A stretch of 64,000 bases of DNA from a virus. Location of the stretch: positions 61,558-125,557 of the IMG/VR virus record IMGVR_UViG_3300043470_000217; one strand, written 5' to 3'. Position 1 is the stretch's first letter; each line of letters opens with the position of its first letter. Shown piece after piece: positions 23,373-30,444 of the stretch. The notes under the pieces were generated by a model, which was given only the letters and a program-made list of their open reading frames with translations, had not been told where the DNA came from and did not search any database. Made by a program: the position numbers and the translations under genes.

Positions 23373-23619
23373 CTACAGTCCACCAATTCCGGATACCATG
23401 TCATCCCACATCTCTTTAGTATATCCAGAGATAATTAATTCTCTTTCATCTACAGATAGATAAGGGAAAGCTGATTGTACGTGTCCACCTTGTACATAGA
23501 AGTTTAAATCTACATGGTTAACAGGTCCCAGCTCATGTTCTCCGCCTTTGACATCTTTAACAAGAAGAATGATTTTACCATCCTCTTCAGTTTTCCGGTA
23601 TGCAAGTATCTGACTCATA
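23373..23619 (-). CDS. conserved phage hypothetical protein
   Basis: VQSAFPYLSVDERELIISG...WD motif. Confidence 0.65.
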
Positions 23620-23802
23620 TTAATCTTCCATAAAATTACCAAAGAAAATAAGAGAACAGGCTAAACATACCATCAAGGCAACAGCACCATACAGGTAATT
23701 AATATTACCGGTAGCAATTAATAATACCATTGTACAAATCTGTGTAATGGCAACAGCAGTCATAAGCCATGCAAATAGCTTTTTAAAGTTAAAATTTTTC
23801 AT
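23620..23802 (-). CDS. small two-TM membrane protein
   Basis: Start MKNFNFKK after an A-rich leader; two hydrophobic helices. Confidence 0.6.
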   Translation of the reverse strand: MKNFNFKKLFAWLMTAVAITQICTMVLLIATGNINYLYGAVALMVCLACSLIFFGNFMED

Positions 23803-23836
23803 ATGTGGTTTTTTAGTTGATTGTTTAATAAAAAAA

Positions 23837-23873
23837 GTCCTGGAAGCAGATCTTACGGTATGCAACCAGGAAC
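23837..23873 (-). ncRNA. hairpin / terminator-like element 3' of tRNA-like RNA A
   Basis: UCCUGG-UU-GCA-(UACCGUAAGAUC)-UGC-UU-CCAGGA followed by a U run. Confidence 0.45.
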
Positions 23874-23878
23874 ATTTG

Positions 23879-23972
23879 TAACAGAGACAGGATTTGAACC
23901 TGTGTAAAGTTTACAAGCTTTAACTACCACATTCATTAGTGGTATGCGTTATACCTATTCCGCCACTCTGTT
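23879..23972 (-). ncRNA. tRNA-like RNA A (Leu-type body, enlarged anticodon loop)
   Basis: Acceptor AACAGAG/CUCUGUU + A73, D arm GCG..CGC with GG, T arm ACAGG-UUCAAAU-CCUGU, long variable arm; anticodon stem UACCAC/GUGGUA closes an 8-nt loop UAAUGAAU. Confidence 0.8.
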
Positions 23973-23976
23973 ATTT

Positions 23977-24024
23977 TGCTGTCTTTCCAGCAGTCAACCA
24001 GTGTTCATTTAAAATGCTCTTGGC
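23977..24024 (-). ncRNA. two-hairpin structured spacer RNA
   Basis: GCCA..CAUUU/AAAUG..UGGU followed by UGCUG-GAAAGA-CAGCA. Confidence 0.45.
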
Positions 24025-24029
24025 TTTCG

Positions 24030-24122
24030 TAGTCAGGACAGGACTCGAACCTGTAAGCTTTTTGCCTTAACAAAGGTATCGGACAGAGAATCCAAAAGCG
24101 TCTACCATTCCGCCACCTGACT
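24030..24122 (-). ncRNA. tRNA-like RNA B (Leu-type body, non-canonical anticodon arm)
   Basis: Acceptor AGUCAGG/CCUGACU + A73, D arm GCG-GAAUGGUAGA-CGC, T arm ACAGG-UUCGAGU-CCUGU; loop UUCUCUG lacks purine 37. Confidence 0.8.
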
Positions 24123-24126
24123 ATTT

Positions 24127-24227
24127 AATGTTATTATTGAGTTTACCCACTTATAAATCATAAGCGTTTGCAACCACTTATGGTATTCCTCATTTATTCC
24201 GTTCTTAGCTGTGAGTCTAATAACATT
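24127..24227 (-). ncRNA. ~100-nt structured RNA between tRNA-like RNAs
   Basis: Closing stem AAUGUUAUUA/UAAUAACAUU; inner CAUAAGUG-GUUGCAAA-CGCUUAUG; UGAG/CUCA and UACC/GGUA. Confidence 0.55.
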
Positions 24228-24229
24228 TG

Positions 24230-24302
24230 TACCAGAGACAGGACTTGAACCTGTATCAATGCAGAGAGCTACTCCACAGCGTCACCATTGCGCCACTCTG
24301 GT
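24230..24302 (-). ncRNA. tRNA-like RNA C (short variable region, aberrant anticodon arm)
   Basis: Acceptor ACCAGAG/CUCUGGU + A73, D arm GCG..CGC, T arm ACAGG-UUCAAGU-CCUGU; anticodon loop GUAGCUC (or 5-nt UAGCU). Confidence 0.8.
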
Positions 24303-24308
24303 AAATAA

Positions 24309-24326
24309 GGGGGCCCGAAGACCCCC
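24309..24326 (-). terminator. UUCG hairpin / terminator between ORF 24335 and the RNA array
   Basis: GGGGGUC-UUCG-GGCCCCC followed by UUAUUU. Confidence 0.6.
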
Positions 24327-24334
24327 ATAATAAA

Positions 24335-24673
24335 TTAGAAGTTGTTGGTCAACAATGCTTCAAAGTAAGCAATGCTTTCTTTGGTTGACTCTAAATCTTC
24401 TGTTCTAGCATCCAATGTTCCTTGAGCACGTTGGATACCTTGTACATACTCACGGTTGTCTGTAAATACAGCAGTAGGGAATACAGCTACGTTAAATGCT
24501 TCTTGAGCATCTTCTACAGCTGTTTCATCATCAACTAGTTTTGCTTTTAAGGCAGCCAATTGACCGTTAATAGCACTAAGTGCTTTACGTTCTACTTTTG
24601 CAGCTACAACACCTGCTTCGTCACCCTTCAAACGGGCTGTTACTTCTTTCATGAAATTTGATACTTTTGACAT
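24335..24673 (-). CDS. coiled-coil hypothetical protein (start MSKVSN)
   Basis: All-helical sequence with an A-rich leader. Confidence 0.7.
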   Translation of the reverse strand: MSKVSNFMKEVTARLKGDEAGVVAAKVERKALSAINGQLAALKAKLVDDETAVEDAQEAFNVAVFPTAVFTDNREYVQGIQRAQGTLDARTEDLESTKESIAYFEALLTNNF

Positions 24674-24695
24674 ATGTTTAGGTTTTTTTGTTTGT

Positions 24696-26111
24696 TTAAT
24701 AAGTGTTTGCAATAATAAGTTTTCTTTTTGGTTTTTTGCGCAAAGTTACAGGAGCTTGGTCATACTTTGCTAATGGATCTTCTTCTTTTACAGAAGGACT
24801 TCCGTGTTCTTGTATTTTCCAAGTATCTAAAAGAAGATTAGTAGAAAAAATAGTTCCTGATGATGTTATAGGGAAATCAGTTCCTGAAGTACTTTTATGT
24901 ATTTTTATGCCTAATCCAAGATCATCATACTCATAGAACTCACACTCAAGCATAGAGTATTCACCTTCTTTACAAGTTACCGTTATTTTGTAACAGTTAT
25001 TGTCAGGTTTATACTTGATATACTCTTTAATAGTTCCTACATAACCATACTGATTATTTCCACCATAATGGTAACCACCACCATAACATTCTGATCTTGA
25101 CTTGTAAGTAACTCTATCTCCTACTTTAAATCTTTGAGGTTTCATTTCTGGTTCTTTAGGTTCTACTTTTGCTTCTACACCTTCATGAATTACTTCATAG
25201 TCAGTGTTTTTAAAATTCCAGCCTGAATAGGTAAAACTTTTATCAGGTCTAAAATCAGATTCACGAATCTGAAGATAAGTACCTAAGTACTTATTCATAT
25301 TACCTTCAGAGTTCCATCCTCTAGGATATCCTTTACTTCCAAATGTATACCAGAGATCTTTAGCCTTAAACTCCTCTTCTGTAAAAATTCTAACAGTTAC
25401 ATAACCTTCTTTAGGAAGAGGAATAGTAGGAGTACTAGGAGTACTAGGCTTAGATACAGTCTCAGATTCTTCTTTAGAAACCAGTTTAAGATGTGATGGA
25501 AGATACCATCGTCCTGTATGATCTGGACAGTGTCCATCTAAGGTATGTCCACCAAGGCTTGCACCTAAAGGGCAATGTACACCTACACTAGAACTACTAA
25601 GAGCTCTTACAATACATTCCCTACCCTTAAAATTATCACAGTCAGGAATAACAATATCACCGATAGTGAATCCATGCCTAGACTCAGAAGAAATAGACTT
25701 AGAAGTTTCAACAGGCTTAACAAATTCTTCATAAGGAGCTAAGATCATCTGAGTATCTGTACGAAAAACAGATTCAGTACCATCTTCTCTTCCTACACTC
25801 CAATAATCTGAGTTGCCTTCATGTATGCCTACAATAACTCCTCTTTTATTACACCAATCCTGATGATCTTGAGTAATAATAACTCTGTCACCAGGTTCAG
25901 GAGTCCATTTAGGATAAAGTACTTTCCAATGCTCTGCTATTTCTTCTGCAGTAGCTGGTCTATAACCATTATCCATAGAAGAGGATTGATTAGCCCAATA
26001 AGATCCTGAGTAAATGTTAAACTCACCAGAAGATATTTGATAACCAATTTTGTCTATAGAGGCTGGACTGAAAGGACGACCAGTGGTCCAAATAATTTTT
26101 AAGTTTGCCAT
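24696..26111 (-). CDS. modular protein with repeated small SH3/KOW-like domains
   Basis: Repeated PGDRV / IGDIV / VGDRV starts separated by Pro/Ser/Thr-rich linkers. Confidence 0.6.
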   Translation of the reverse strand: MANLKIIWTTGRPFSPASIDKIGYQISSGEFNIYSGSYWANQSSSMDNGYRPATAEEIAEHWKVLYPKWTPEPGDRVIITQDHQDWCNKRGVIVGIHEGNSDYWSVGREDGTESVFRTDTQMILAPYEEFVKPVETSKSISSESRHGFTIGDIVIPDCDNFKGRECIVRALSSSSVGVHCPLGASLGGHTLDGHCPDHTGRWYLPSHLKLVSKEESETVSKPSTPSTPTIPLPKEGYVTVRIFTEEEFKAKDLWYTFGSKGYPRGWNSEGNMNKYLGTYLQIRESDFRPDKSFTYSGWNFKNTDYEVIHEGVEAKVEPKEPEMKPQRFKVGDRVTYKSRSECYGGGYHYGGNNQYGYVGTIKEYIKYKPDNNCYKITVTCKEGEYSMLECEFYEYDDLGLGIKIHKSTSGTDFPITSSGTIFSTNLLLDTWKIQEHGSPSVKEEDPLAKYDQAPVTLRKKPKRKLIIANTY

Positions 26112-26113
26112 AG

Positions 26114-26590
26114 TTAACTCATTAAAGGGTTTGCTTGTTTTATTAGTTTATGAAAGTTCTCTAAGAATTCTTCTGCAATTTTCTTAGATTGAAATGAAAG
26201 AAACTTATGAGTAGTGTACCAAACATCTACTATAACTTTATCTTTATGAAAATTTACACACCATTTAGTACTTTTTTCATCATTCCAATCAGGAACCCAT
26301 CCTTGACGGTAAACTTCACGTAGTTGTGATAACTGAGCAAATGCAAGACATGCATTAGCTTGTCTCTCTGTTACAAACATGTTTCTATTATCAATGTATG
26401 TTTTTGTATCCCTTTCATATTCAATATGACAACAGTCACCAACAAAATAGCCAGATATATTTTCTAATTCTCCCCAATTCTTAGGAAGATTAGATTCAAT
26501 CTTTTTAAATGCAACAAGCCCTTTTGTCAAGTCACTGTTCTTTTGGTCAATTTCATAACCATCTGGGATTTCAATATTAAATGTTTTCAT
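26114..26590 (-). CDS. conserved Bacteroidetes-phage hypothetical protein
   Basis: IEIPDGYEID...LPKNWGE...QLSQLR..Y..GW.PDW...FLSF. Confidence 0.7.
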   Translation of the reverse strand: MKTFNIEIPDGYEIDQKNSDLTKGLVAFKKIESNLPKNWGELENISGYFVGDCCHIEYERDTKTYIDNRNMFVTERQANACLAFAQLSQLREVYRQGWVPDWNDEKSTKWCVNFHKDKVIVDVWYTTHKFLSFQSKKIAEEFLENFHKLIKQANPLMS

Positions 26591-26619
26591 AGTTTTAGGG
26601 TTTTAAGATTAATAAAAAA

Positions 26620-26820
26620 ACAAACTCTCCTGCATGATCACCATGCTTTTGGATTTTACTGAACATAGTTTACTGTTCACCTGATTACTTAAAGTGCGCA
26701 CTGGCAGAGCAGGGTCCATCACATTATACCTTGGGTCATGATTACTTAATCGGGTAATTACTCCCATAAAGCCAAGGTCTCTTTCAACGGTGCTAATCCG
26801 TCTTATGTAAGAGAGTTTGT
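26620..26820 (-). ncRNA. ~200-nt structured RNA directly 3' of tRNA-Leu
   Basis: Terminal stem ACAAACUCUC/GAGAGUUUGU followed by a U run; inner stems ACGG/CCGU, ACCUUGG/CCAAGGU, UGAACA/UGUUCA. Confidence 0.6.
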
Positions 26821-26824
26821 TTTG

Positions 26825-26910
26825 TACTACTAGTGGGAATCGAACCCACACTGACATTGCTGTCAACAGGATTTTAAGTCCTGCGCGTCTACCTATTCCG
26901 CCATAGTAGT
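26825..26910 (-). tRNA. trnL-UAA: tRNA-Leu (anticodon UAA)
   Basis: ACUACUA/UAGUAGU acceptor, CAGGA-CUUAAAA-UCCUG anticodon arm, variable arm UGACA-GCAA-UGUCA, GUGGG-UUCGAUU-CCCAC T arm; CCA not encoded. Confidence 0.95.
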
Positions 26911-26917
26911 GTACATG

Positions 26918-26925
26918 CAAATATA
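26918..26925 (-). promoter_or_regulatory. Bacteroidetes -7 promoter (TATATTTG) in front of tRNA-Leu
   Basis: TAnnTTTG 7 nt upstream of the tRNA 5' end. Confidence 0.65.
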
Positions 26926-26928
26926 ATA

Positions 26929-27069
26929 TTAATATTCTATTATACGGTCATAGTACTTATGTCTTGCTTTACTACAAGACTTGGGTAATTTACCATCACC
27001 GGTATAGCGCTTAGAAGCACACCCGGTAATAGTAACAATCAAAGCAAGCAATACAATTACCTTCTTCAT
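26929..27069 (-). CDS. small lipoprotein (46 aa, not in ORF track)
   Basis: MKKVIVLLALIVTITGCASKRYTGDGKLPKSCSKARHKYYDRIIEY, lipobox ITGC. Confidence 0.65.
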   Translation of the reverse strand: MKKVIVLLALIVTITGCASKRYTGDGKLPKSCSKARHKYYDRIIEY

Positions 27070-27072
27070 ATC

Positions 27073-27300
27073 TTAATTCTCAGTGATAACATATACTAAC
27101 CACATAAACAAAGTAATGATAGTCATTACAAAGGCTACATTGCCTAGAATATCCTGGAAACAACTAACAAAAGTGTTATGCCCCATAAGAGCACCCAGAG
27201 AAGCTAATAAACCGGCTATGATGATAGAACTCACCACAGTAAAAACAACAGGAACCACTATCATCAATAGTGACTTTCCAAGATAGATTATATATTTCAT
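27073..27300 (-). CDS. small membrane protein
   Basis: Two long hydrophobic segments. Confidence 0.6.
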   Translation of the reverse strand: MKYIIYLGKSLLMIVVPVVFTVVSSIIIAGLLASLGALMGHNTFVSCFQDILGNVAFVMTIITLFMWLVYVITEN

Positions 27301-27357
27301 ATTAGTTTAGTTAATAAATCCAGTAATACTAGTAGGTATAATACCCTTAAGTATAAG

Positions 27358-27384
27358 AAGCAGTTTAGACACATGCTTAGGTGT
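27358..27384 (-). ncRNA. small H-type pseudoknot
   Basis: ACAC-CU-AAGCA-U-GUGU-CUAAAC-UGCUU: stem 1 ACAC/GUGU, stem 2 AAGCA/UGCUU. Confidence 0.45.
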
Positions 27385-27512
27385 TTGTAAGGGATGACTT
27401 CAACTACCTTACTTCAATGGCTCTGTTTTGGTATACTGTATTACTACAGCGGAACAAACCTATCCATCATTTCCGCACTTAAGGCTTTGGAACTTGCCTA
27501 TATGATTTAGTT

Positions 27513-27677
27513 ACTCCACTCTGCATTCAATTGTAATAGAAAGCCAATAACACAAAAATGTTATCCGTTTGGGGCAACTAATTGTTCACCTATAAATAGG
27601 TTTAGTGTCTGTCCATGCTTTATATCTCGCTACTACAATTGCTATCCCTTGTGAAGATAGTTATGATGCATTAAAGT
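27513..27677 (-). ncRNA. twister self-cleaving ribozyme (type P1) with extended P5
   Basis: P1 ACUU/GAGU; L1 UAA and GAGUG; P2 UGCA/UGCA; P4 CUAUC/GAUAG with loop UUCACAAGG; T1 CAC/GUG; 12-bp P5 CAAUUGUAGUAG/CUAUUACAAUUG. Confidence 0.8.
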
Positions 27678-28040
27678 TGGTTAGGTTCTCGTACTAACCC
27701 CTATAACTTGCTTTTACTTGTTATAGACGCAGTGGCTTCACTATGGTTTACACCATTTCCCCCCACTGTTGTTATCTTTTAGCCATATAATGGCCCATTC
27801 GTCCCCACCTAATCCCACTTCTTACCAGTTTGTGATAAGTGTAGTTTTGATGAGAAGGTTGTTTGTCACTCTCTCTCACACCCTTACAACTGTCCACTGT
27901 ATTATACAGTTTGTCATGAAAAAGTTAAACATTATGACAATTGTCTCAAGAATTACGGGGTTTATAGTTTCAAAAGTTAAACAAAACTATTTTTCCTCTC
28001 TTACTAGAAGTTTGATTATATAGTGGTTTCTATATAAAAG

Positions 28041-28073
28041 AAAAAAAAAGAGATAGGTGTAACCCTATCTCTT
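28041..28073 (-). terminator. intrinsic terminator after ORF 28087
   Basis: AAGAGAUAGG-GUUACA-CCUAUCUCUU followed by a long U run. Confidence 0.7.
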
Positions 28074-28086
28074 AATGGTGAATTAA

Positions 28087-28578
28087 CTATTCATCTGATT
28101 CATCAGTGAATGGTGTTTCACCTTCAGCAACAGGTTCTTCCTGCGGTGTAACCGTGGAAGTATCTGCTTGCTGTGGCACGCTGGCAGGTTCTGCAACAGG
28201 TGCAGCAACTGTAGTTGACAGTCCAAGGGACGCCATCAACTGCTGTGCAGCCAACTGTGCAGTAGCCTGAGCCAAGAGACCTGTGCCTAAACTGTCAATC
28301 GCAGATTGCATTTTGGCCACAGTGTCAAACTTGGCGTACACACGGCTGCTGTCATAGTTCCACTCCAGTGTAACTACTGACGGCATGAAAGCGTCTGTGG
28401 TTTTCCACAAGGGCTTTCCCGTGTCTTCATCGTGCTGAAGGTAATCACCCTGTGATTCTTCATAAGCCTCAAGTTCTTGAGGTGTTGAAGCGGAAACAAG
28501 GTAAACTCTTACGAGTTTGCCTTTTTGGAGGCCTTTGGATGCACGATAAGTGCGTGCAAATTTTGCTTTAATGCTCAT
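28087..28578 (-). CDS. first gene of the leftward arm, hypothetical protein with Ala-rich and acidic tail
   Basis: Long ORF, visibly more GC-rich than its neighbours. Confidence 0.75.
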   Translation of the reverse strand: MSIKAKFARTYRASKGLQKGKLVRVYLVSASTPQELEAYEESQGDYLQHDEDTGKPLWKTTDAFMPSVVTLEWNYDSSRVYAKFDTVAKMQSAIDSLGTGLLAQATAQLAAQQLMASLGLSTTVAAPVAEPASVPQQADTSTVTPQEEPVAEGETPFTDESDE

Positions 28579-28613
28579 AATTTTTAATTATTAGTGTTAA
28601 GTGAAATTTTCAC

Positions 28614-28867
28614 TAAACAAAGAGTAAGGACAGAGTAGCCCTTTTGTAAAACATAAGGAACCACCCGCAAGGGGGGTTACGGGTGTGTGTGTGCAGCACA
28701 ATCATTCTTTCCCCCAAGAATGATGTGATGAACAACACTGTTCCCTATGTTTGTTTAGAATAAGTAATAGAGTAGTAATACTCTATTGGTTAGATAAATA
28801 ATACATAATTAATATGCAATTGCATATTAAACAAAGAGTAATAAAGAGTAGCCTTTTTCTTTTGTAG
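28614..28867. repeat. imperfect direct repeat TAAACAAAGAGTAA-N3/4-AGAGTAGCC, plus a 22-bp perfect palindrome
   Basis: Copies at 28614-28640 and 28828-28853; palindrome TTAATATGCAATTGCATATTAA at 28809-28830. Confidence 0.7.
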
Positions 28868-29016
28868 CCTATAGGGGGTAGCCCCCAAGCCTTGGGAAGC
28901 CGGGGGCATGCGTGGGGGGAATCAACCCCACTGCCACCCATAAAACAATCCTCATATACGTGGGGGGTATTAGAGTGAACCCCATGTGCCGGGGGTATCT
29001 TATCTCACCTTAAAAT

Positions 29017-29625
29017 TTAATTTATACCGTAGTAGTAGTTGTCCGTATCTTCTGCCACCCATCTATCACTTTGGTTTTCTACACTAGGTAGTTCTGTATC
29101 TACTTTGTATGATGTAGGGTGTAATGGGAAATCTTTAGTTACCCAGTTAGAGTCTTTCCAGTATATCCGGTTATTAGGCATGCATAGTAAGTAGCCATCT
29201 TCACTCACTAGTATATGTCCGGCTTTATAGTCACTTGGTTCATCACTGTATGGGTTATTGTACCAGTCTACTGTAAATAGGTAATTGGCCCAGATCATTG
29301 TTTTGTCTTTTAGAATTACCTGGCATCTGTGCTCACTTAAGAAGTCATAGTGTACTACGCTTACGTTTTCACTAAAGCAATCCCATAGTTGTTTGAAGTG
29401 AAAGGGGATATCGTTATCACACTCCTTAGTATATATCTCACTTATGGGTACTCTGGATCTTACCATACCGTAGTCAGTAATAACGTGAAAGGTTAGTATT
29501 TTACCCGCTACACTTTGTACCCCGAATACATAGATGTTATCATATTCTGTGTCCTCTGTATTCTTAGTGAGATAAGCCCTTTTTATTAATGCTTTGAAGT
29601 GAGGTATATTTGAGTTTAGAACCAT
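29017..29625 (-). CDS. conserved phage hypothetical protein
   Basis: LNSNIP...QLWDCFS...YLFTVDW...PNNR; TATATTTG promoter at 29629-29636. Confidence 0.75.
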   Translation of the reverse strand: MVLNSNIPHFKALIKRAYLTKNTEDTEYDNIYVFGVQSVAGKILTFHVITDYGMVRSRVPISEIYTKECDNDIPFHFKQLWDCFSENVSVVHYDFLSEHRCQVILKDKTMIWANYLFTVDWYNNPYSDEPSDYKAGHILVSEDGYLLCMPNNRIYWKDSNWVTKDFPLHPTSYKVDTELPSVENQSDRWVAEDTDNYYYGIN

Positions 29626-29714
29626 GATCAAATATATACCCAATTATTTTAGTATGTATATTTGTTAATAATTTGTTAGTGGTGGTAAATATATAAAGTG
29701 TAAACTTGTATATT

Positions 29715-29831
29715 ATGCCAGAGAATGAAGAAGTTAGCAGGCCGGTCACTTGTATTAGGTGTGGTAAACCAATGGAACCTGATGAGCCTTGTGATTGCAA
29801 TGAGCTGGTGTATGTGTACTGGGAAATGTAA
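29715..29831 (+). CDS. small zinc-finger peptide (38 aa, not in ORF track)
   Basis: MPENEEVSRPVTCIRCGKPMEPDEPCDCNELVYVYWEM. Confidence 0.5.
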   Translation: MPENEEVSRPVTCIRCGKPMEPDEPCDCNELVYVYWEM

Positions 29832-29842
29832 ATTATAAACCA

Positions 29843-30079
29843 ATGGATGAAAATAAAGAGCTTACACCTGAAGAGGTAAAAGAGCGTAAAGAAAAGTTAG
29901 TTCAGTATTATACTGAACAGGTAGAATTCTTAACTGTACAGTTAGAGTATGAGACGTTAGTTACACAGATTGAGGAACAGAGAGCTAAGCGCTTGCAGTT
30001 TCAAGTTATGGTGGCTAATATGTTGGCCCCGGATGAAGAGGAGGAAGAGGAAAAGCCAAGAACACTTAAGAGGTCATGA
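29843..30079 (+). CDS. hypothetical coiled-coil protein
   Basis: Start of the rightward operon. Confidence 0.7.
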   Translation: MDENKELTPEEVKERKEKLVQYYTEQVEFLTVQLEYETLVTQIEEQRAKRLQFQVMVANMLAPDEEEEEEKPRTLKRS

Positions 30080-30444
30080 TCGTAAATCAAGTTAGTAAGA
30101 AGGTTAAGATGGATAAGAGTGATATTGTAAAGTATCAACTCCTCACCCATTGTTATCTTGAAAGGATTAACGTTAGTAACGCTGATCTTGATTGTCTTAC
30201 TATGCTTGCATTTAATGGGGAGATTGAGCTTACCGAGTTTTGTAATTATGTATCAGATGAGGGGATCTTCAAGACCCCTCAATCTGTTAGAAATGCAGTC
30301 ATCAAGTTTGAACGCAAAGGCATGATTGAAAAGAATGGTAAGGGAAGGAAGATGATTAAGTTGGCACCCGTCCTTAATGTGCAAGCCACTGGTAATGTTT
30401 TATTAGATTATAAATTTGTAAGTATTGAACCCCAAGAAGTATAA
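30076..30444 (+). CDS. winged-helix DNA-binding protein
   Basis: TPQSVRNAVIKFERKGMIEKNG wHTH pattern. Confidence 0.55.
   Translation: MIVNQVSKKVKMDKSDIVKYQLLTHCYLERINVSNADLDCLTMLAFNGEIELTEFCNYVSDEGIFKTPQSVRNAVIKFERKGMIEKNGKGRKMIKLAPVLNVQATGNVLLDYKFVSIEPQEV

What the first reader, a model, noticed from the sequence alone, without database searches (positions are those of the whole stretch)
23837..24326. Array of anticodon-scrambled tRNA-like RNAs alternating with unrelated structured RNAs: a possible tRNA-punctuated small-RNA expression system
Seen: three minus-strand elements (24230-24302, 24030-24122, 23879-23972) each keep a perfect 7-bp acceptor stem with covarying pairs (ACCAGAG, AGUCAGG, AACAGAG), U at -1, discriminator A73, UG-GCG...CGC D arm with the GG dinucleotide, and the same T stem ACAGG-UUCRARU-CCUGU. 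Their anticodon/variable regions are mutually unrelated and break tRNA rules: an 8-nt loop, U at 37, G at 32. Each is followed by a different folded RNA (about 100 nt, 48 nt and 37 nt). Known: RNase P and tRNase Z read the acceptor/T/D elbow rather than the anticodon, and LeuRS relies on A73 and the elbow. Inference: intact stems around a free anticodon arm suggest selection for shape, not decoding. The elements could be processing marks that release the intervening RNAs, or decoys for anticodon nucleases and tRNA-sensing defences.
Basis: partly seen in the sequence, partly recalled or inferred. Interest (0 to 1): 0.88.

Follow-up and report, generated by a model that had tools for sequence, protein, structure and literature searches.

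The report
Phage tRNA-shaped RNAs without working anticodons
Three small genes in this lake phage keep the outer frame of a leucine tRNA but carry unrelated, non-decoding middles; they belong to a very large, barely studied family of phage RNAs whose job is unknown.

Summary
On the minus strand, 24230-24302, 24030-24122 and 23879-23972 are tRNA-shaped. Each has a perfect 7-bp acceptor stem, a leucine-type D arm, a shared T arm, A73, U at -1 and C at +1. None has a canonical anticodon loop.

They are members of a large phage family, not decayed tRNAs. One 25-base chassis word occurs in at least 120 IMG/VR contigs. My scan of the fetched loci gave 154 distinct elements of 69-250 nt with mostly unrelated centres. 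A model built without the window scores the three at 72.5, 54.1 and 46.0 bits. The window's real tRNA-Leu scores 29.3.

The centres of elements 2 and 3 recur unchanged in other contigs, element 3's on another acceptor stem. The 57-nt spacer RNA is conserved too.

Most likely they are non-decoding small RNAs cut out by host tRNA-processing enzymes and probably chargeable by LeuRS. The centre would be the working part. Function is unknown.

The closest described things are phage T5 RNA1/RNA2/RNA3 and T4 rnaC, of unknown function. This scan has already noted the family many times on other DNA.

The parts
24309..24326 (-). G+C-rich hairpin followed by UUAUUU, directly upstream of element 1. It is terminator-like and marks the end of the preceding 125-aa ORF.
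   Evidence: Terminator scan, (7 pairs, 6 G-C); sequence.
24230..24302 (-). Element 1. A 73-nt tRNA-shaped RNA with acceptor ACCAGAG, T loop UUCAAGU and central hairpin GUGGA-GUAGCUC-UCUGC. This centre was seen nowhere else.
   Evidence: 41.4 bits; cloverleaf; R1 46.0 bits; 0 IMG/VR hits for the centre. An RNA-library contig covers it with 1 difference (record 17).
24123..24229 (-). 107-nt spacer RNA between elements 1 and 2. Its ends pair with each other in the predicted fold. It is specific to this lineage.
   Evidence: Fold z -2.9. No homologue in the other fetched loci. Covered with 0 differences by a 147-nt contig of RNA run X17 (record 16).
24030..24122 (-). Element 2. A 93-nt core member of the AGUCAGG leucine-tRNA chassis family. 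The centre has two hairpins and can be drawn either as an anticodon-like arm plus variable arm, or as a 5-bp stem capped by two hairpins.
   Evidence: 44.1 bits; R1 72.5 bits, E 1.6e-14. Identical centre in L023 and L026 with different flanks.
23973..24029 (-). 57-nt spacer RNA, conserved in related and unrelated phages and always starting right after a chassis 3' end. Its 3' part (23976-23996) is a hairpin module with an invariant GAAAGA loop, ending 3 nt before element 3.
   Evidence: 92-94% identity over 50-51 nt in L002, L004, L010 and L011, and over 37 nt in L008. The hairpin module occurs in 22 distinct contexts, 16 of them 2-4 nt upstream of a chassis-type 5' end, with C-G/U-A exchange in the stem.
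23879..23972 (-). Element 3. A 94-nt tRNA-shaped RNA with acceptor AACAGAG, a 6-bp stem carrying the 8-nt loop UAAUGAAU, and a second hairpin in the variable-arm position. It is a paralogue of element 1 in its frame and in its 3' flank (CAAAUGUU).
   Evidence: 45.8 bits; R1 54.1 bits. Same centre on the AGUCAGG frame in L022/L144 and L140. Same loop on a covarying stem in L044.
23830..23878 (-). Closing hairpin plus a run of 7 U, the likely terminator of the array. Its loop carries a motif (GCAUACCGU..AGAUCUGCU) that recurs in other phage RNA clusters.
   Evidence: Fold z -2.8. The motif is found in L002, L004, L027, L029 and L065. Exact 19-mers in L029, L065 and L090.

Best explanation
These are three genes for non-decoding, tRNA-shaped small RNAs of a large phage family. 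The family keeps the outer frame of a leucine tRNA (acceptor stem, D arm, T arm, A73) and replaces the anticodon region with a freely varying folded centre.

**Proposed mechanism.**
- The array is transcribed as one RNA that ends at the hairpin plus U7 at 23830-23878.
- Host RNase P cuts at the U(-1)/+1 junction of each frame.
- A host 3' tRNA-processing enzyme trims at A73/C74, and the host CCA-adding enzyme completes the end.
- This releases three frame RNAs and the two RNAs between them as separate stable molecules.
- The frame gives folding, defined ends and stability.
- It keeps the elements that E. coli LeuRS needs, so the RNAs can probably be leucylated.
- The centre is the working part, most likely a binding surface for a host or phage factor.

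**Shown:** the shape, its conservation and covariation, the flank signals, family membership, and conservation of two of the three centres and of one spacer.

**Inferred:** transcription as one unit, cleavage, CCA addition, charging, and any effector role.
For: **Shape.** Cloverleaf folds and tRNA-model hits.

**Membership.** Model R1 was built from 30 family elements, none from the window.
- It scores the three at 72.5, 54.1 and 46.0 bits.
- The window's tRNA-Leu scores 29.3, and the best T5 and T4 real tRNAs 38.3 and 34.8.

**Family size.**
- 154 distinct elements were found, 131 of them with acceptor AGUCAGG, at lengths of 69-250 nt.
- R1 finds 190 hits at E <= 1e-5 in 100 loci.

**Frame pairing.** 98.6% of cells are paired. 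9 of 15 pairs change on both sides. 0 of 500 shuffles reach this.

**Non-decoding.**
- ARAGORN gives 7 canonical calls, 44 odd calls and 103 no calls among the 154.
- U at the position of U33 is found in only 43 of 140.

**Ends.** U-1 in 121 of 141, C+1 in 136 of 140, encoded CCA in 4 of 140. The real tRNA-Leu of the window has the same A|CAAA trailer.

**Centres under selection.**
- Identical centres sit in different contigs and on different acceptor stems, and the loop UAAUGAAU is kept on a 6 of 6 covarying stem.
- L002 and L117 share a centre with compensatory changes (read).
- Inserts fold better than shuffles in 88 of 113 cases, mean z -0.75.

**Rates.** The neighbouring 471-aa protein is 58-76% identical in relatives, while the 57-nt RNA is 92-94% identical.

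**Charging.**
- A73 in 135 of 140 and U48 in 117 of 140.
- A14, A15 and G18 are invariant or nearly so.
- The identity review PMC9976931 (passages read) says E. coli LeuRS needs A73, A15-U48, G18G19 and A20a. It also says that variants lacking the anticodon arm are still charged.

**Host dependence.**
- The phage genome has no PolyA_pol, TROVE, RtcB or RNA_ligase match.
- No neighbouring protein family is shared by more than 9 of 100 loci.

**Precedent.**
- The T5 record annotates tRNA-like stable RNAs next to other stable RNAs.
- The engineered 'tRNA scaffold' shows that such fusions are processed and stable in E. coli (PMC3753655, passages).
Against: - No direct evidence of transcription, cleavage sites, CCA ends or charging exists. 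The RNA runs are assembled contigs, which cannot show ends or strand, and DNA may be present in RNA libraries.
- A terminator-like hairpin sits directly upstream of element 1, and no promoter was found for the array (9 sigma-70-like sites against 14.3 expected). Co-transcription is therefore assumed.
- Element 1's centre has no homologue at all, so nothing shows it is under selection.
- Element 3 has C, not U, before the T stem, so one LeuRS element (A15-U48) is not met there.
- The LeuRS rules are from E. coli, and the host here is unknown.
- The family sample is biased. Loci were fetched with an exact chassis 25-mer, and the covariation count was made on a model-fitted alignment.
- The inserts' folding excess is modest.
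Confidence: 0.6

Rival explanations
1. Punctuation only. The tRNA-shaped units serve solely as RNase P/Z cutting marks that release the RNAs lying between them. The centres are then free to drift.
For: - The 57-nt spacer RNA is conserved and always lies between two frames.
- Its 3' hairpin module ends 2-4 nt before a chassis-type 5' end in 16 of 22 contexts.
- T5 has stable RNAs I, III and IV directly abutting tRNA-like RNAs and tRNAs.
- MHV68 TMERs use a tRNA-like unit and tRNase Z to release hairpins (PMC4838037, passage).
Against: - The centres of elements 2 and 3 are identical in other contigs whose flanks differ.
- The 8-nt loop is kept on a covarying stem.
- The 107-nt spacer has no homologue in the fetched loci.
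Confidence: 0.15
2. Decoys or sponges for proteins that bind tRNA, such as LeuRS, EF-Tu or tRNA-sensing and tRNA-cutting defence proteins. The RNAs would act by occupying the protein through the constant frame.
For: - The frame keeps the LeuRS identity set.
- The same frame sequence is kept across very different phages.
- It is rare in cellular genomes: 14 hits in the genome collection, all on MAG contigs.
Against: - A decoy acting through the frame does not explain why specific centres are conserved and exchanged.
- Anticodon nucleases read the anticodon loop, which is absent here.
- Elements 1 and 3 have diverged acceptor sequences. If sequence-specific acceptor recognition mattered, it is not kept in this phage.
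Confidence: 0.12
3. A DNA-level by-product. The constant arms are mainly crossover points for homologous recombination, or targets of homing endonucleases, in phage tRNA clusters. The pattern of constant frame and swapped centre reflects cassette shuffling rather than an RNA function.
For: - The same centre sits on different acceptor stems (window against L022 and L140; L002 against L117).
- RNA-library contigs show relatives with other module orders, including element 1 joined to the freshwater-1 region across 2309 nt.
- A T5orf172-domain protein lies near the elements in 5 of 100 loci.
- T4 and T5 tRNA clusters hold homing endonucleases.
Against: - Recombination explains how modules move, not why the frames keep pairing through compensatory changes.
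- It also does not explain why U-1, C+1 and A73 are kept.
- Endonuclease genes are present in few of the loci.
Confidence: 0.08
4. Decaying tRNA pseudogenes with no function.
For: - Non-canonical anticodon loops.
- Lower Rfam scores (41-46 bits) than the true tRNA-Leu (63.4).
- Element 1's centre is unique.
Against: - All three acceptor, D and T stems are intact.
- Decay would hit all arms, yet the frame pairs in 98.6% of cells across the family.
- Centres are conserved across contigs.
Confidence: 0.03
5. Intron-containing tRNAs, as proposed for Lak megaphages. The extra bases are spliced out to leave a normal decoding tRNA.
For: Devoto et al. 2019 (PMC6784885, passages read) report oversized phage tRNAs read as having conserved 'enigmatic introns' in phages of a Bacteroidota host.
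Against: - ARAGORN with introns allowed finds only a 3-nt 'intron' in element 3 and none in elements 1 and 2.
- Across the family the position of U33 is U in 43 of 140.
- A class-I anticodon stem is present in 21 of 140, against a control mean of 8.1 and maximum of 17.
- No phage RNA ligase or RtcB was found.
Confidence: 0.02

Closest known systems
Phage T5 RNA1, RNA2 and RNA3, annotated in AY543070 as 'tRNA-like stable RNA with unknown functions', with their neighbours RNAI, RNAIII and RNAIV
   Same: - They lie in a phage tRNA/stable-RNA cluster and alternate with other stable RNAs.
- RNA1 has a leucine-type D arm, a T arm, paired ends and about 85 nt in place of the anticodon arm.
- RNA2 has the T arm GCAGGUUCGAAUCCUGU, as in this family.
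- Their function is unknown.
   Different: - They are not sequence members of this chassis family. R1 gives 20.5 and 26.1 bits, below T5's own tRNAs at up to 38.3.
- T5 has single copies with no known set of exchangeable centres.
- The host is E. coli, and the RNAs were seen experimentally according to the record's annotation, which is not the case here.
Phage T4 rnaC (species 1) and rnaD (species 2)
   Same: - They are small stable RNAs encoded at the end of the T4 tRNA cluster.
- rnaC has a T arm and paired ends.
- Their roles are unknown (PMC3014915 and PMC9697503, passages).
   Different: - rnaC scores 21.1 bits with R1 and rnaD gives no hit.
- There is no leucine-type D arm and no family of variable centres.
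Engineered 'tRNA scaffold' for RNA expression in E. coli (Ponchon and Dardel; PMC3753655, passages read)
   Same: - The acceptor, T and D arms are kept.
- The anticodon stem-loop is replaced by any RNA of interest.
- The fusion is recognised by cellular factors, processed precisely and protected from decay.
   Different: - It is man-made and uses human tRNA-Lys3 or E. coli frames.
- In most natural elements here no regular anticodon stem closes the insert (21 of 140).
MHV68 TMERs (tRNA-miRNA-encoded RNAs; PMC4838037, passage read)
   Same: A viral array of tRNA-like units followed by hairpin RNAs that a tRNA 3'-processing enzyme releases.
   Different: - It is a eukaryotic virus with Pol III promoters inside the tRNA-like unit, and the products are Dicer-made miRNAs.
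- It is unrelated in sequence.
Lak megaphage tRNAs with 'enigmatic introns' (PMC6784885, passages read; Supplementary Table 6 not seen)
   Same: - Oversized tRNA-like genes in phages of a Bacteroidota host.
- The inserts are identical across cohorts.
   Different: - They are read there as introns in decoding tRNAs.
- Here no canonical anticodon loop can be restored.
- Whether the Lak cases are the same family was not tested.
Aminoacylatable tRNA-like structures of plant RNA viruses, and tmRNA
   Same: - Both are tRNA mimics that are charged by a synthetase without decoding (PMC4810235, passages).
- In tmRNA a large insert sits between the two halves of a tRNA-like domain.
   Different: - The plant structures are 3' ends of genomes with pseudoknotted acceptors.
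- tmRNA is charged with Ala and carries a tag ORF.
- ARAGORN's tmRNA search found none here.

Membership tests
Canonical decoding tRNA (Rfam RF00005) | Cloverleaf with a 7-bp acceptor stem, D arm and T arm, scoring above the gathering score | tested here: met
   41.4, 44.1 and 45.8 bits against a gathering score of 29. Cloverleaf minimum-energy folds.
Canonical decoding tRNA (Rfam RF00005) | 7-nt anticodon loop with pyrimidine 32, U33 and purine 37 on a 5-bp stem | tested here: not met
   The loops are GUAGCUC (G32, U37), UUCUCUG (U37) and the 8-nt UAAUGAAU.
Phage leucine-tRNA chassis RNAs with variable centre (defined by model R1; not in Rfam) | The frame (acceptor, D and T arms) matches R1 better than real tRNAs do | tested here: met
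   72.5, 54.1 and 46.0 bits, against 29.3 for the window's tRNA-Leu, up to 38.3 for T5 tRNAs and up to 34.8 for T4 tRNAs. The margin for element 1 is small.
Phage leucine-tRNA chassis RNAs with variable centre (defined by model R1; not in Rfam) | A73, U at -1, C at +1, no encoded CCA | tested here: met
   All three elements. Family rates are 135 of 140, 121 of 141, 136 of 140 and CCA in 4 of 140.
Phage leucine-tRNA chassis RNAs with variable centre (defined by model R1; not in Rfam) | U before the T stem (U48, partner of A15) | tested here: inconclusive
   Present in elements 1 and 2. Element 3 has C. The family rate is 117 of 140.
Phage leucine-tRNA chassis RNAs with variable centre (defined by model R1; not in Rfam) | A centre unrelated to those of other members, or shared as a movable module | tested here: met
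   The three centres are mutually unrelated. Element 2's centre is in L023 and L026. Element 3's is in L022/L144 and L140 on another acceptor stem.
T5 RNA1/RNA2-type tRNA-like stable RNAs | Placed in a phage tRNA/stable-RNA cluster, with tRNA-like ends around an insert | tested here: met
   tRNA-Leu and a freshwater-1-like RNA lie 2.5 kb upstream, and other small RNAs are interleaved. T5 layout and folds.
T5 RNA1/RNA2-type tRNA-like stable RNAs | Sequence relationship to T5 RNA1 or RNA2 | tested here: not met
   R1 scores T5 RNA1 at 20.5 and RNA2 at 26.1 bits, below T5's real tRNAs.
T5 RNA1/RNA2-type tRNA-like stable RNAs | Accumulates as a stable RNA in infected cells | not testable with these tools
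   Only assembled contigs of RNA libraries were available.
Intron-containing tRNA | Removing the insert restores a canonical anticodon arm | tested here: not met
   ARAGORN with introns allowed. U33 position is U in 43 of 140.
tmRNA | tRNA-like domain plus tag reading frame and pseudoknots | tested here: not met
   ARAGORN's tmRNA search on the window and the whole genome found none. The centres are 23-43 nt.
Y RNA / YrlA with Ro60 | Ro60 (TROVE) partner, with the tRNA-like module inside a Ro-binding stem | tested here: not met
   No TROVE match in the phage genome. The topology here is that of a tRNA, with the ends in the acceptor stem.

The most novel reading that the evidence does not exclude
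The leucine-tRNA frame is a natural, standardised display platform. Phages mount interchangeable RNA modules (aptamer-like binders or regulators) on a frame that the host matures, CCA-tails and leucylates. A charged, EF-Tu-competent handle then carries each module to the translation apparatus or to host defence proteins. The modules are traded between phages as cassettes. In this reading the three elements and the two spacer RNAs are an operon of RNA effectors.
Probability: 0.22. Interest if true: 0.85.

Novelty: new variant of a known kind. Interest (0 to 1): 0.6.

Why it matters
Phage genomes are annotated almost wholly by their proteins. Here a compact cluster makes at least five small RNAs, and three of them belong to a family with hundreds of members in uncultured phages. 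All share one tRNA frame and carry different middles.

If the frame is what lets the host cut, stabilise and perhaps charge these RNAs, nature found the 'tRNA scaffold' trick long before it was engineered. The middles would then be a large, unexplored stock of functional RNA modules.

It would also give a handle on the T4 and T5 'stable RNAs', which the papers and records seen here still describe as of unknown function.

In practice, tRNA finders report these genes as odd tRNAs (here Ala-AGC, Glu-CUC and undetermined). That can mislead estimates of phage tRNA content and of codon reassignment.

Tried and rejected
**Known RNA families.** Rfam at E <= 1 over 23500-27200 and 26900-30100 found nothing in the centres, the spacers or the closing hairpin. 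Rfam on L002/L004 and on L008/L010/L011 found only tRNA, freshwater-1 and one pistol ribozyme.

**Deposited phage genomes.**
- The 1.2-kb region gave no match.
- Element 2 alone gave 80 records, with 0 of 80 covering at least 80% of it. These were only generic D-arm or T-arm pieces at E >= 0.07.

**Element 1 centre.** 0 hits in IMG/VR.

**Element 3 loop pattern.** Of 16 distinct sequence contexts, 4 are chassis elements with 6 of 6 stem pairs, the window's own among them. The other 12 have at most 4 of 6 pairs and no frame, so they are chance hits.

**Phage-encoded partners.**
- No PolyA_pol, TROVE, RtcB or RNA_ligase in the 125.5-kb genome.
- Pfam and PHROGs on the flanking ORFs gave nothing beyond phrog_30482 (unknown function) and a glucosaminidase further away.
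- Clustering 1018 ORFs within 2.5 kb of frames in 100 loci gave a largest cluster in 9 loci (DUF932). T5orf172 and metallophosphoesterase clusters were each in 5 loci.

**Promoters.** 9 sigma-70-like sites against 14.3 expected, which is no support. By eye, a TAnnTTTG motif lies 7 nt upstream of the real tRNA-Leu. None was seen before element 1.

**RNA libraries.**
- The runs are assembled contigs only, so no ends, strand or level can be read.
- In X16 and X17 the ORF block 24302-26524 had almost no cover while the RNA genes did.
- Shares under 0.2 are not used for habitat.

**Cellular genomes.** The chassis 25-mer gave 14 hits, all on MAG contigs, 5 of them labelled Bacteroidota. This is too weak to name a host.

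**T4 and T5 RNAs.** They are not sequence members of the family.

**Literature.**
- Searches found no paper describing a constant tRNA frame with variable centres in phages.
- 'freshwater-1' returned 4 irrelevant papers.
- The preprint on bacterial tRNA mimics (abstract and outline only) concerns RNAs with a different connectivity.
- Supplementary tables were closed. Table S6 of PMC6784885 may bear on the intron reading.

**Twister ribozyme.** Another first-stage note places one at 27513-27677. Rfam gave no match at E <= 1, and I did not test it further.
Full report
**What is there.** The window is part of a 125.5-kb IMG/VR phage record of 34.6% G+C, with terminase and portal genes. On the minus strand ARAGORN and Rfam find four tRNA-like genes.
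- One is an ordinary tRNA-Leu(UAA) at 26825-26910 (63.4 bits).
- The other three are at 24230-24302, 24030-24122 and 23879-23972 (41.4, 44.1 and 45.8 bits; gathering score 29).
- ARAGORN labels these three 'Ala agc', 'Glu ctc' and undetermined with a four-base 'anticodon'.

**Features of the three elements.**
- Read directly, each has a perfect 7-bp acceptor stem (ACCAGAG, AGUCAGG, AACAGAG with exact complements), U at -1, A73 and C at +1.
- Each has a D arm of the leucine-tRNA type and the T arm ACAGG-UUCRARU-CCUGU.
- All three fold as cloverleaves.
- The anticodon-like hairpins break the rules: G32 and U37 in element 1, U37 in element 2, and an 8-nt loop on a 6-bp stem in element 3.
- Between and after them lie a 107-nt RNA, a 57-nt RNA and a hairpin followed by seven U. 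All three fold better than shuffled controls (z -2.9, -2.0, -2.8).
Only the spacer lengths were approximate.

**They belong to a big family.**
- Relatives were fetched through the neighbouring 471-aa protein. In the same place they carry tRNA-framed elements with 44 to about 100 nt where the anticodon arm should be.
- One locus (L008) has at least eight frames in 2.5 kb, all with the same ends and different middles.
- It occurs in only 14 contigs of the 185,579-species genome collection, all from MAGs.
- No deposited phage genome covers at least 80% of element 2 (0 of 80 records).
- My scan of the fetched loci gave 154 distinct elements, 131 of them with acceptor AGUCAGG. Lengths spread evenly from 69 to 250 nt, and most centres are unrelated.

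**Membership of the window's elements.**
- Covariance model R1 was built from 30 of these elements, none from the window.
- It scores the window's elements at 72.5, 54.1 and 46.0 bits.
- The window's real tRNA-Leu scores 29.3, and the real tRNAs of T5 and T4 reach at most 38.3 and 34.8.
- Element 2 is a core member. Elements 1 and 3 are diverged members, and element 1 has a small margin.
- R1 finds 190 matches at E <= 1e-5 in 100 loci.
- On the best 150 of these, 98.6% of stem cells pair, 9 of 15 pairs change on both sides, and 0 of 500 shuffles reach this.
- Caveats: the loci were fetched with an exact frame word, and the alignment is fitted to the model.

**They do not decode.**
- Of the 154 elements ARAGORN with a canonical loop, 44 with odd loops and 103 not at all.
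- At the place of U33, U is found in 43 of 140.
- A class-I anticodon stem is present in 21 of 140 (control mean 8.1, maximum 17).
- In contrast, U before the T stem is kept in 117 of 140 and A73 in 135 of 140.
- With introns allowed, ARAGORN finds nothing sensible in the window's three.
- This speaks against the intron reading that Devoto et al. gave to oversized tRNAs of Lak megaphages (PMC6784885, passages). I could not see their Table S6, so whether those are the same family stays open.

**The centres are not junk.**
- Element 2's centre is identical in L023 and L026, where the flanks differ.
- Element 3's centre is identical in L022/L144 and L140, but there it sits on the AGUCAGG frame, while the window has AACAGAG.
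- In L044 the same 8-nt loop UAAUGAAU sits on a stem changed at all six pairs.
- L002 and L117 share a 75-nt centre on different acceptor stems, with compensatory changes in two helices (read).
- Inserts of 35 nt or more fold better than dinucleotide shuffles in 88 of 113 cases, with mean z -0.75.
- Element 1's centre has no homologue, so nothing can be said for it.
- Within the window, elements 1 and 3 share the frame and the 8-nt 3' flank but have unrelated centres. That is a replacement of the centre inside one genome.

**The spacers.**
- The 57-nt RNA is 92-94% identical in L002, L004, L008, L010 and L011, where the neighbouring protein is only 58-76% identical.
- It always begins right after a frame's A73.
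- Its 3' hairpin (invariant GAAAGA loop, C-G/U-A exchange in the stem) is found in 22 contexts. In 16 it ends 2-4 nt before a chassis-type 5' end, in 2 before another tRNA-like start, and in 4 before a U/A-rich run.
- The 107-nt RNA is specific to this lineage.
- The closing hairpin carries a loop motif that recurs in other phage RNA clusters.

**Processing signals and charging.**
- Across the family U-1 is found in 121 of 141 and C+1 in 136 of 140, and CCA is encoded in only 4 of 140.
- The window's real tRNA-Leu has the same A|CAAA trailer. The frames therefore carry the same end signals as true tRNAs of these phages.
- That RNase P favours U at -1, and that CCA-less precursors are cut after the discriminator, is established knowledge that I recall; I did not test it.
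- The frame keeps A14, A15, G18G19, U48 and A73.
- The identity review (PMC9976931, passages) states that E. coli LeuRS needs A73, the A15-U48 pair, G18G19 and A20a. It does not need the anticodon or the long arm, and variants without the anticodon arm are still charged.
- Charging of these RNAs is therefore a reasonable inference, not a result. Element 3 lacks U48.
- The phage has no CCA-adding enzyme, Ro60, RtcB or RNA ligase of its own.
- No protein family accompanies the frames in more than 9 of 100 loci. Host enzymes must do the work.

**Expression.**
- The stretch is held by many lake-water metagenomes, and in small shares by freshwater metatranscriptomes.
- Laid on the window, the four RNA runs (contigs only) include a 147-nt contig that covers 24105-24231 without a difference.
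- A 245-nt contig holds element 1 joined directly to 26612-26676, skipping the 2.3-kb ORF block.
- That contig shows a relative in which the RNA genes are contiguous.
- Contigs cannot show ends or strand, and RNA libraries can hold DNA. This is presence, not proof of transcription.

**What it is like.**
- The T5 record annotates RNA1, RNA2 and RNA3 as tRNA-like stable RNAs of unknown function, abutting stable RNAs I, III and IV and real tRNAs.
- T5 RNA1 folds with a leucine-type D arm, a T arm and about 85 nt in the middle. RNA2 has this family's T arm.
- T4 rnaC has a T arm and paired ends. Its role is unknown.
- None of these is a sequence member of the present family.
- In working principle the closest things are two. 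One is the engineered tRNA scaffold, where the anticodon arm is replaced by any RNA and the fusion is processed and stable (PMC3753655). The other is the MHV68 TMERs, where a tRNA-like unit and tRNase Z release downstream hairpins (PMC4838037).

**Verdict.**
- The elements are real, selected, non-decoding tRNA-framed RNAs.
- 'Punctuation only' is too narrow, because the centres are conserved too.
- The decoy idea is open.
- The kind (phage tRNA-like stable RNAs) is known from T5 and T4. The constant-frame, exchangeable-centre family was not found in the papers searched.
- This scan has already noted it on many other genomes: one search lists 156 notes that hold the search words, and I used them as leads only.
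- I rate it a new variant of a known kind, of real but not exceptional interest for this window. Its three members are short, and one has no relatives.

Noticed in passing
window 26654-26723 (-), with tRNA-Leu at 26825-26910 (-): A freshwater-1 RNA (RF02979) look-alike scores 53.2 bits, below the gathering score of 72, and has 20 nt rather than 12 in its first hairpin. It lies about 100 nt downstream of the real tRNA-Leu. In relatives L002-L005 a full-scoring freshwater-1 RNA (75.6-82.7 bits) lies about 100 nt downstream of a tRNA-Glu at the same place. A tRNA followed by freshwater-1 is therefore a conserved pair.
   Followed up: partly
window 24303-26611 (the ORFs of 158, 471 and 125 aa): A 245-nt contig of RNA run X17 joins element 1 (24229-24302) directly to 26612-26676. 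A relative therefore lacks the whole 2.3-kb ORF block and has one uninterrupted cluster of RNA genes (record 17). None of the three ORFs has a Pfam family.
   Followed up: partly
window 26923-26951 (-) and the bases up to 26911: A TAnnTTTG motif (TATATTTG), which I recall as the Bacteroidota -7 promoter box, ends 7 nt upstream of the tRNA-Leu 5' end. The same TTATATTTGCAT string precedes a conserved RNA in L004. It hints at a Bacteroidota host and at transcription starting almost at the tRNA.
   Followed up: no
L002 8215-8300, L004 9350-9440, and G000:C1 about 54,300 (outside the window): A conserved element of about 90 nt begins GAACCCCUCUUGGGAUAG and ends in the hairpin with the GCAUACCGU..AGAUCUGCU motif plus a U run. 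It lies just upstream of a frame in relatives. Part of it also occurs elsewhere in this phage's genome. It is not in Rfam at the thresholds used.
   Followed up: partly
L011 8330-8390 (-): A pistol ribozyme (RF02679, 57.7 bits against a gathering score of 34.5) lies about 0.9 kb upstream of a frame element in a related RNA cluster.
   Followed up: no
L044 and L070/L020 (family elements of 71-73 nt): A few members on the same AGUCAGG frame have canonical or near-canonical anticodon loops: Lys UUU in L044 and Ile UAU in L070. The L020 copy of the Ile UAU centre sits on another acceptor stem (GCUCUCG). The frame is therefore also used by what look like real tRNAs.
   Followed up: partly
window 27513-27677 (-): Another first-stage note proposes a twister ribozyme with a large insert here. 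Rfam found nothing at E <= 1 in 26900-30100. A large insert could hide it from the model.
   Followed up: partly
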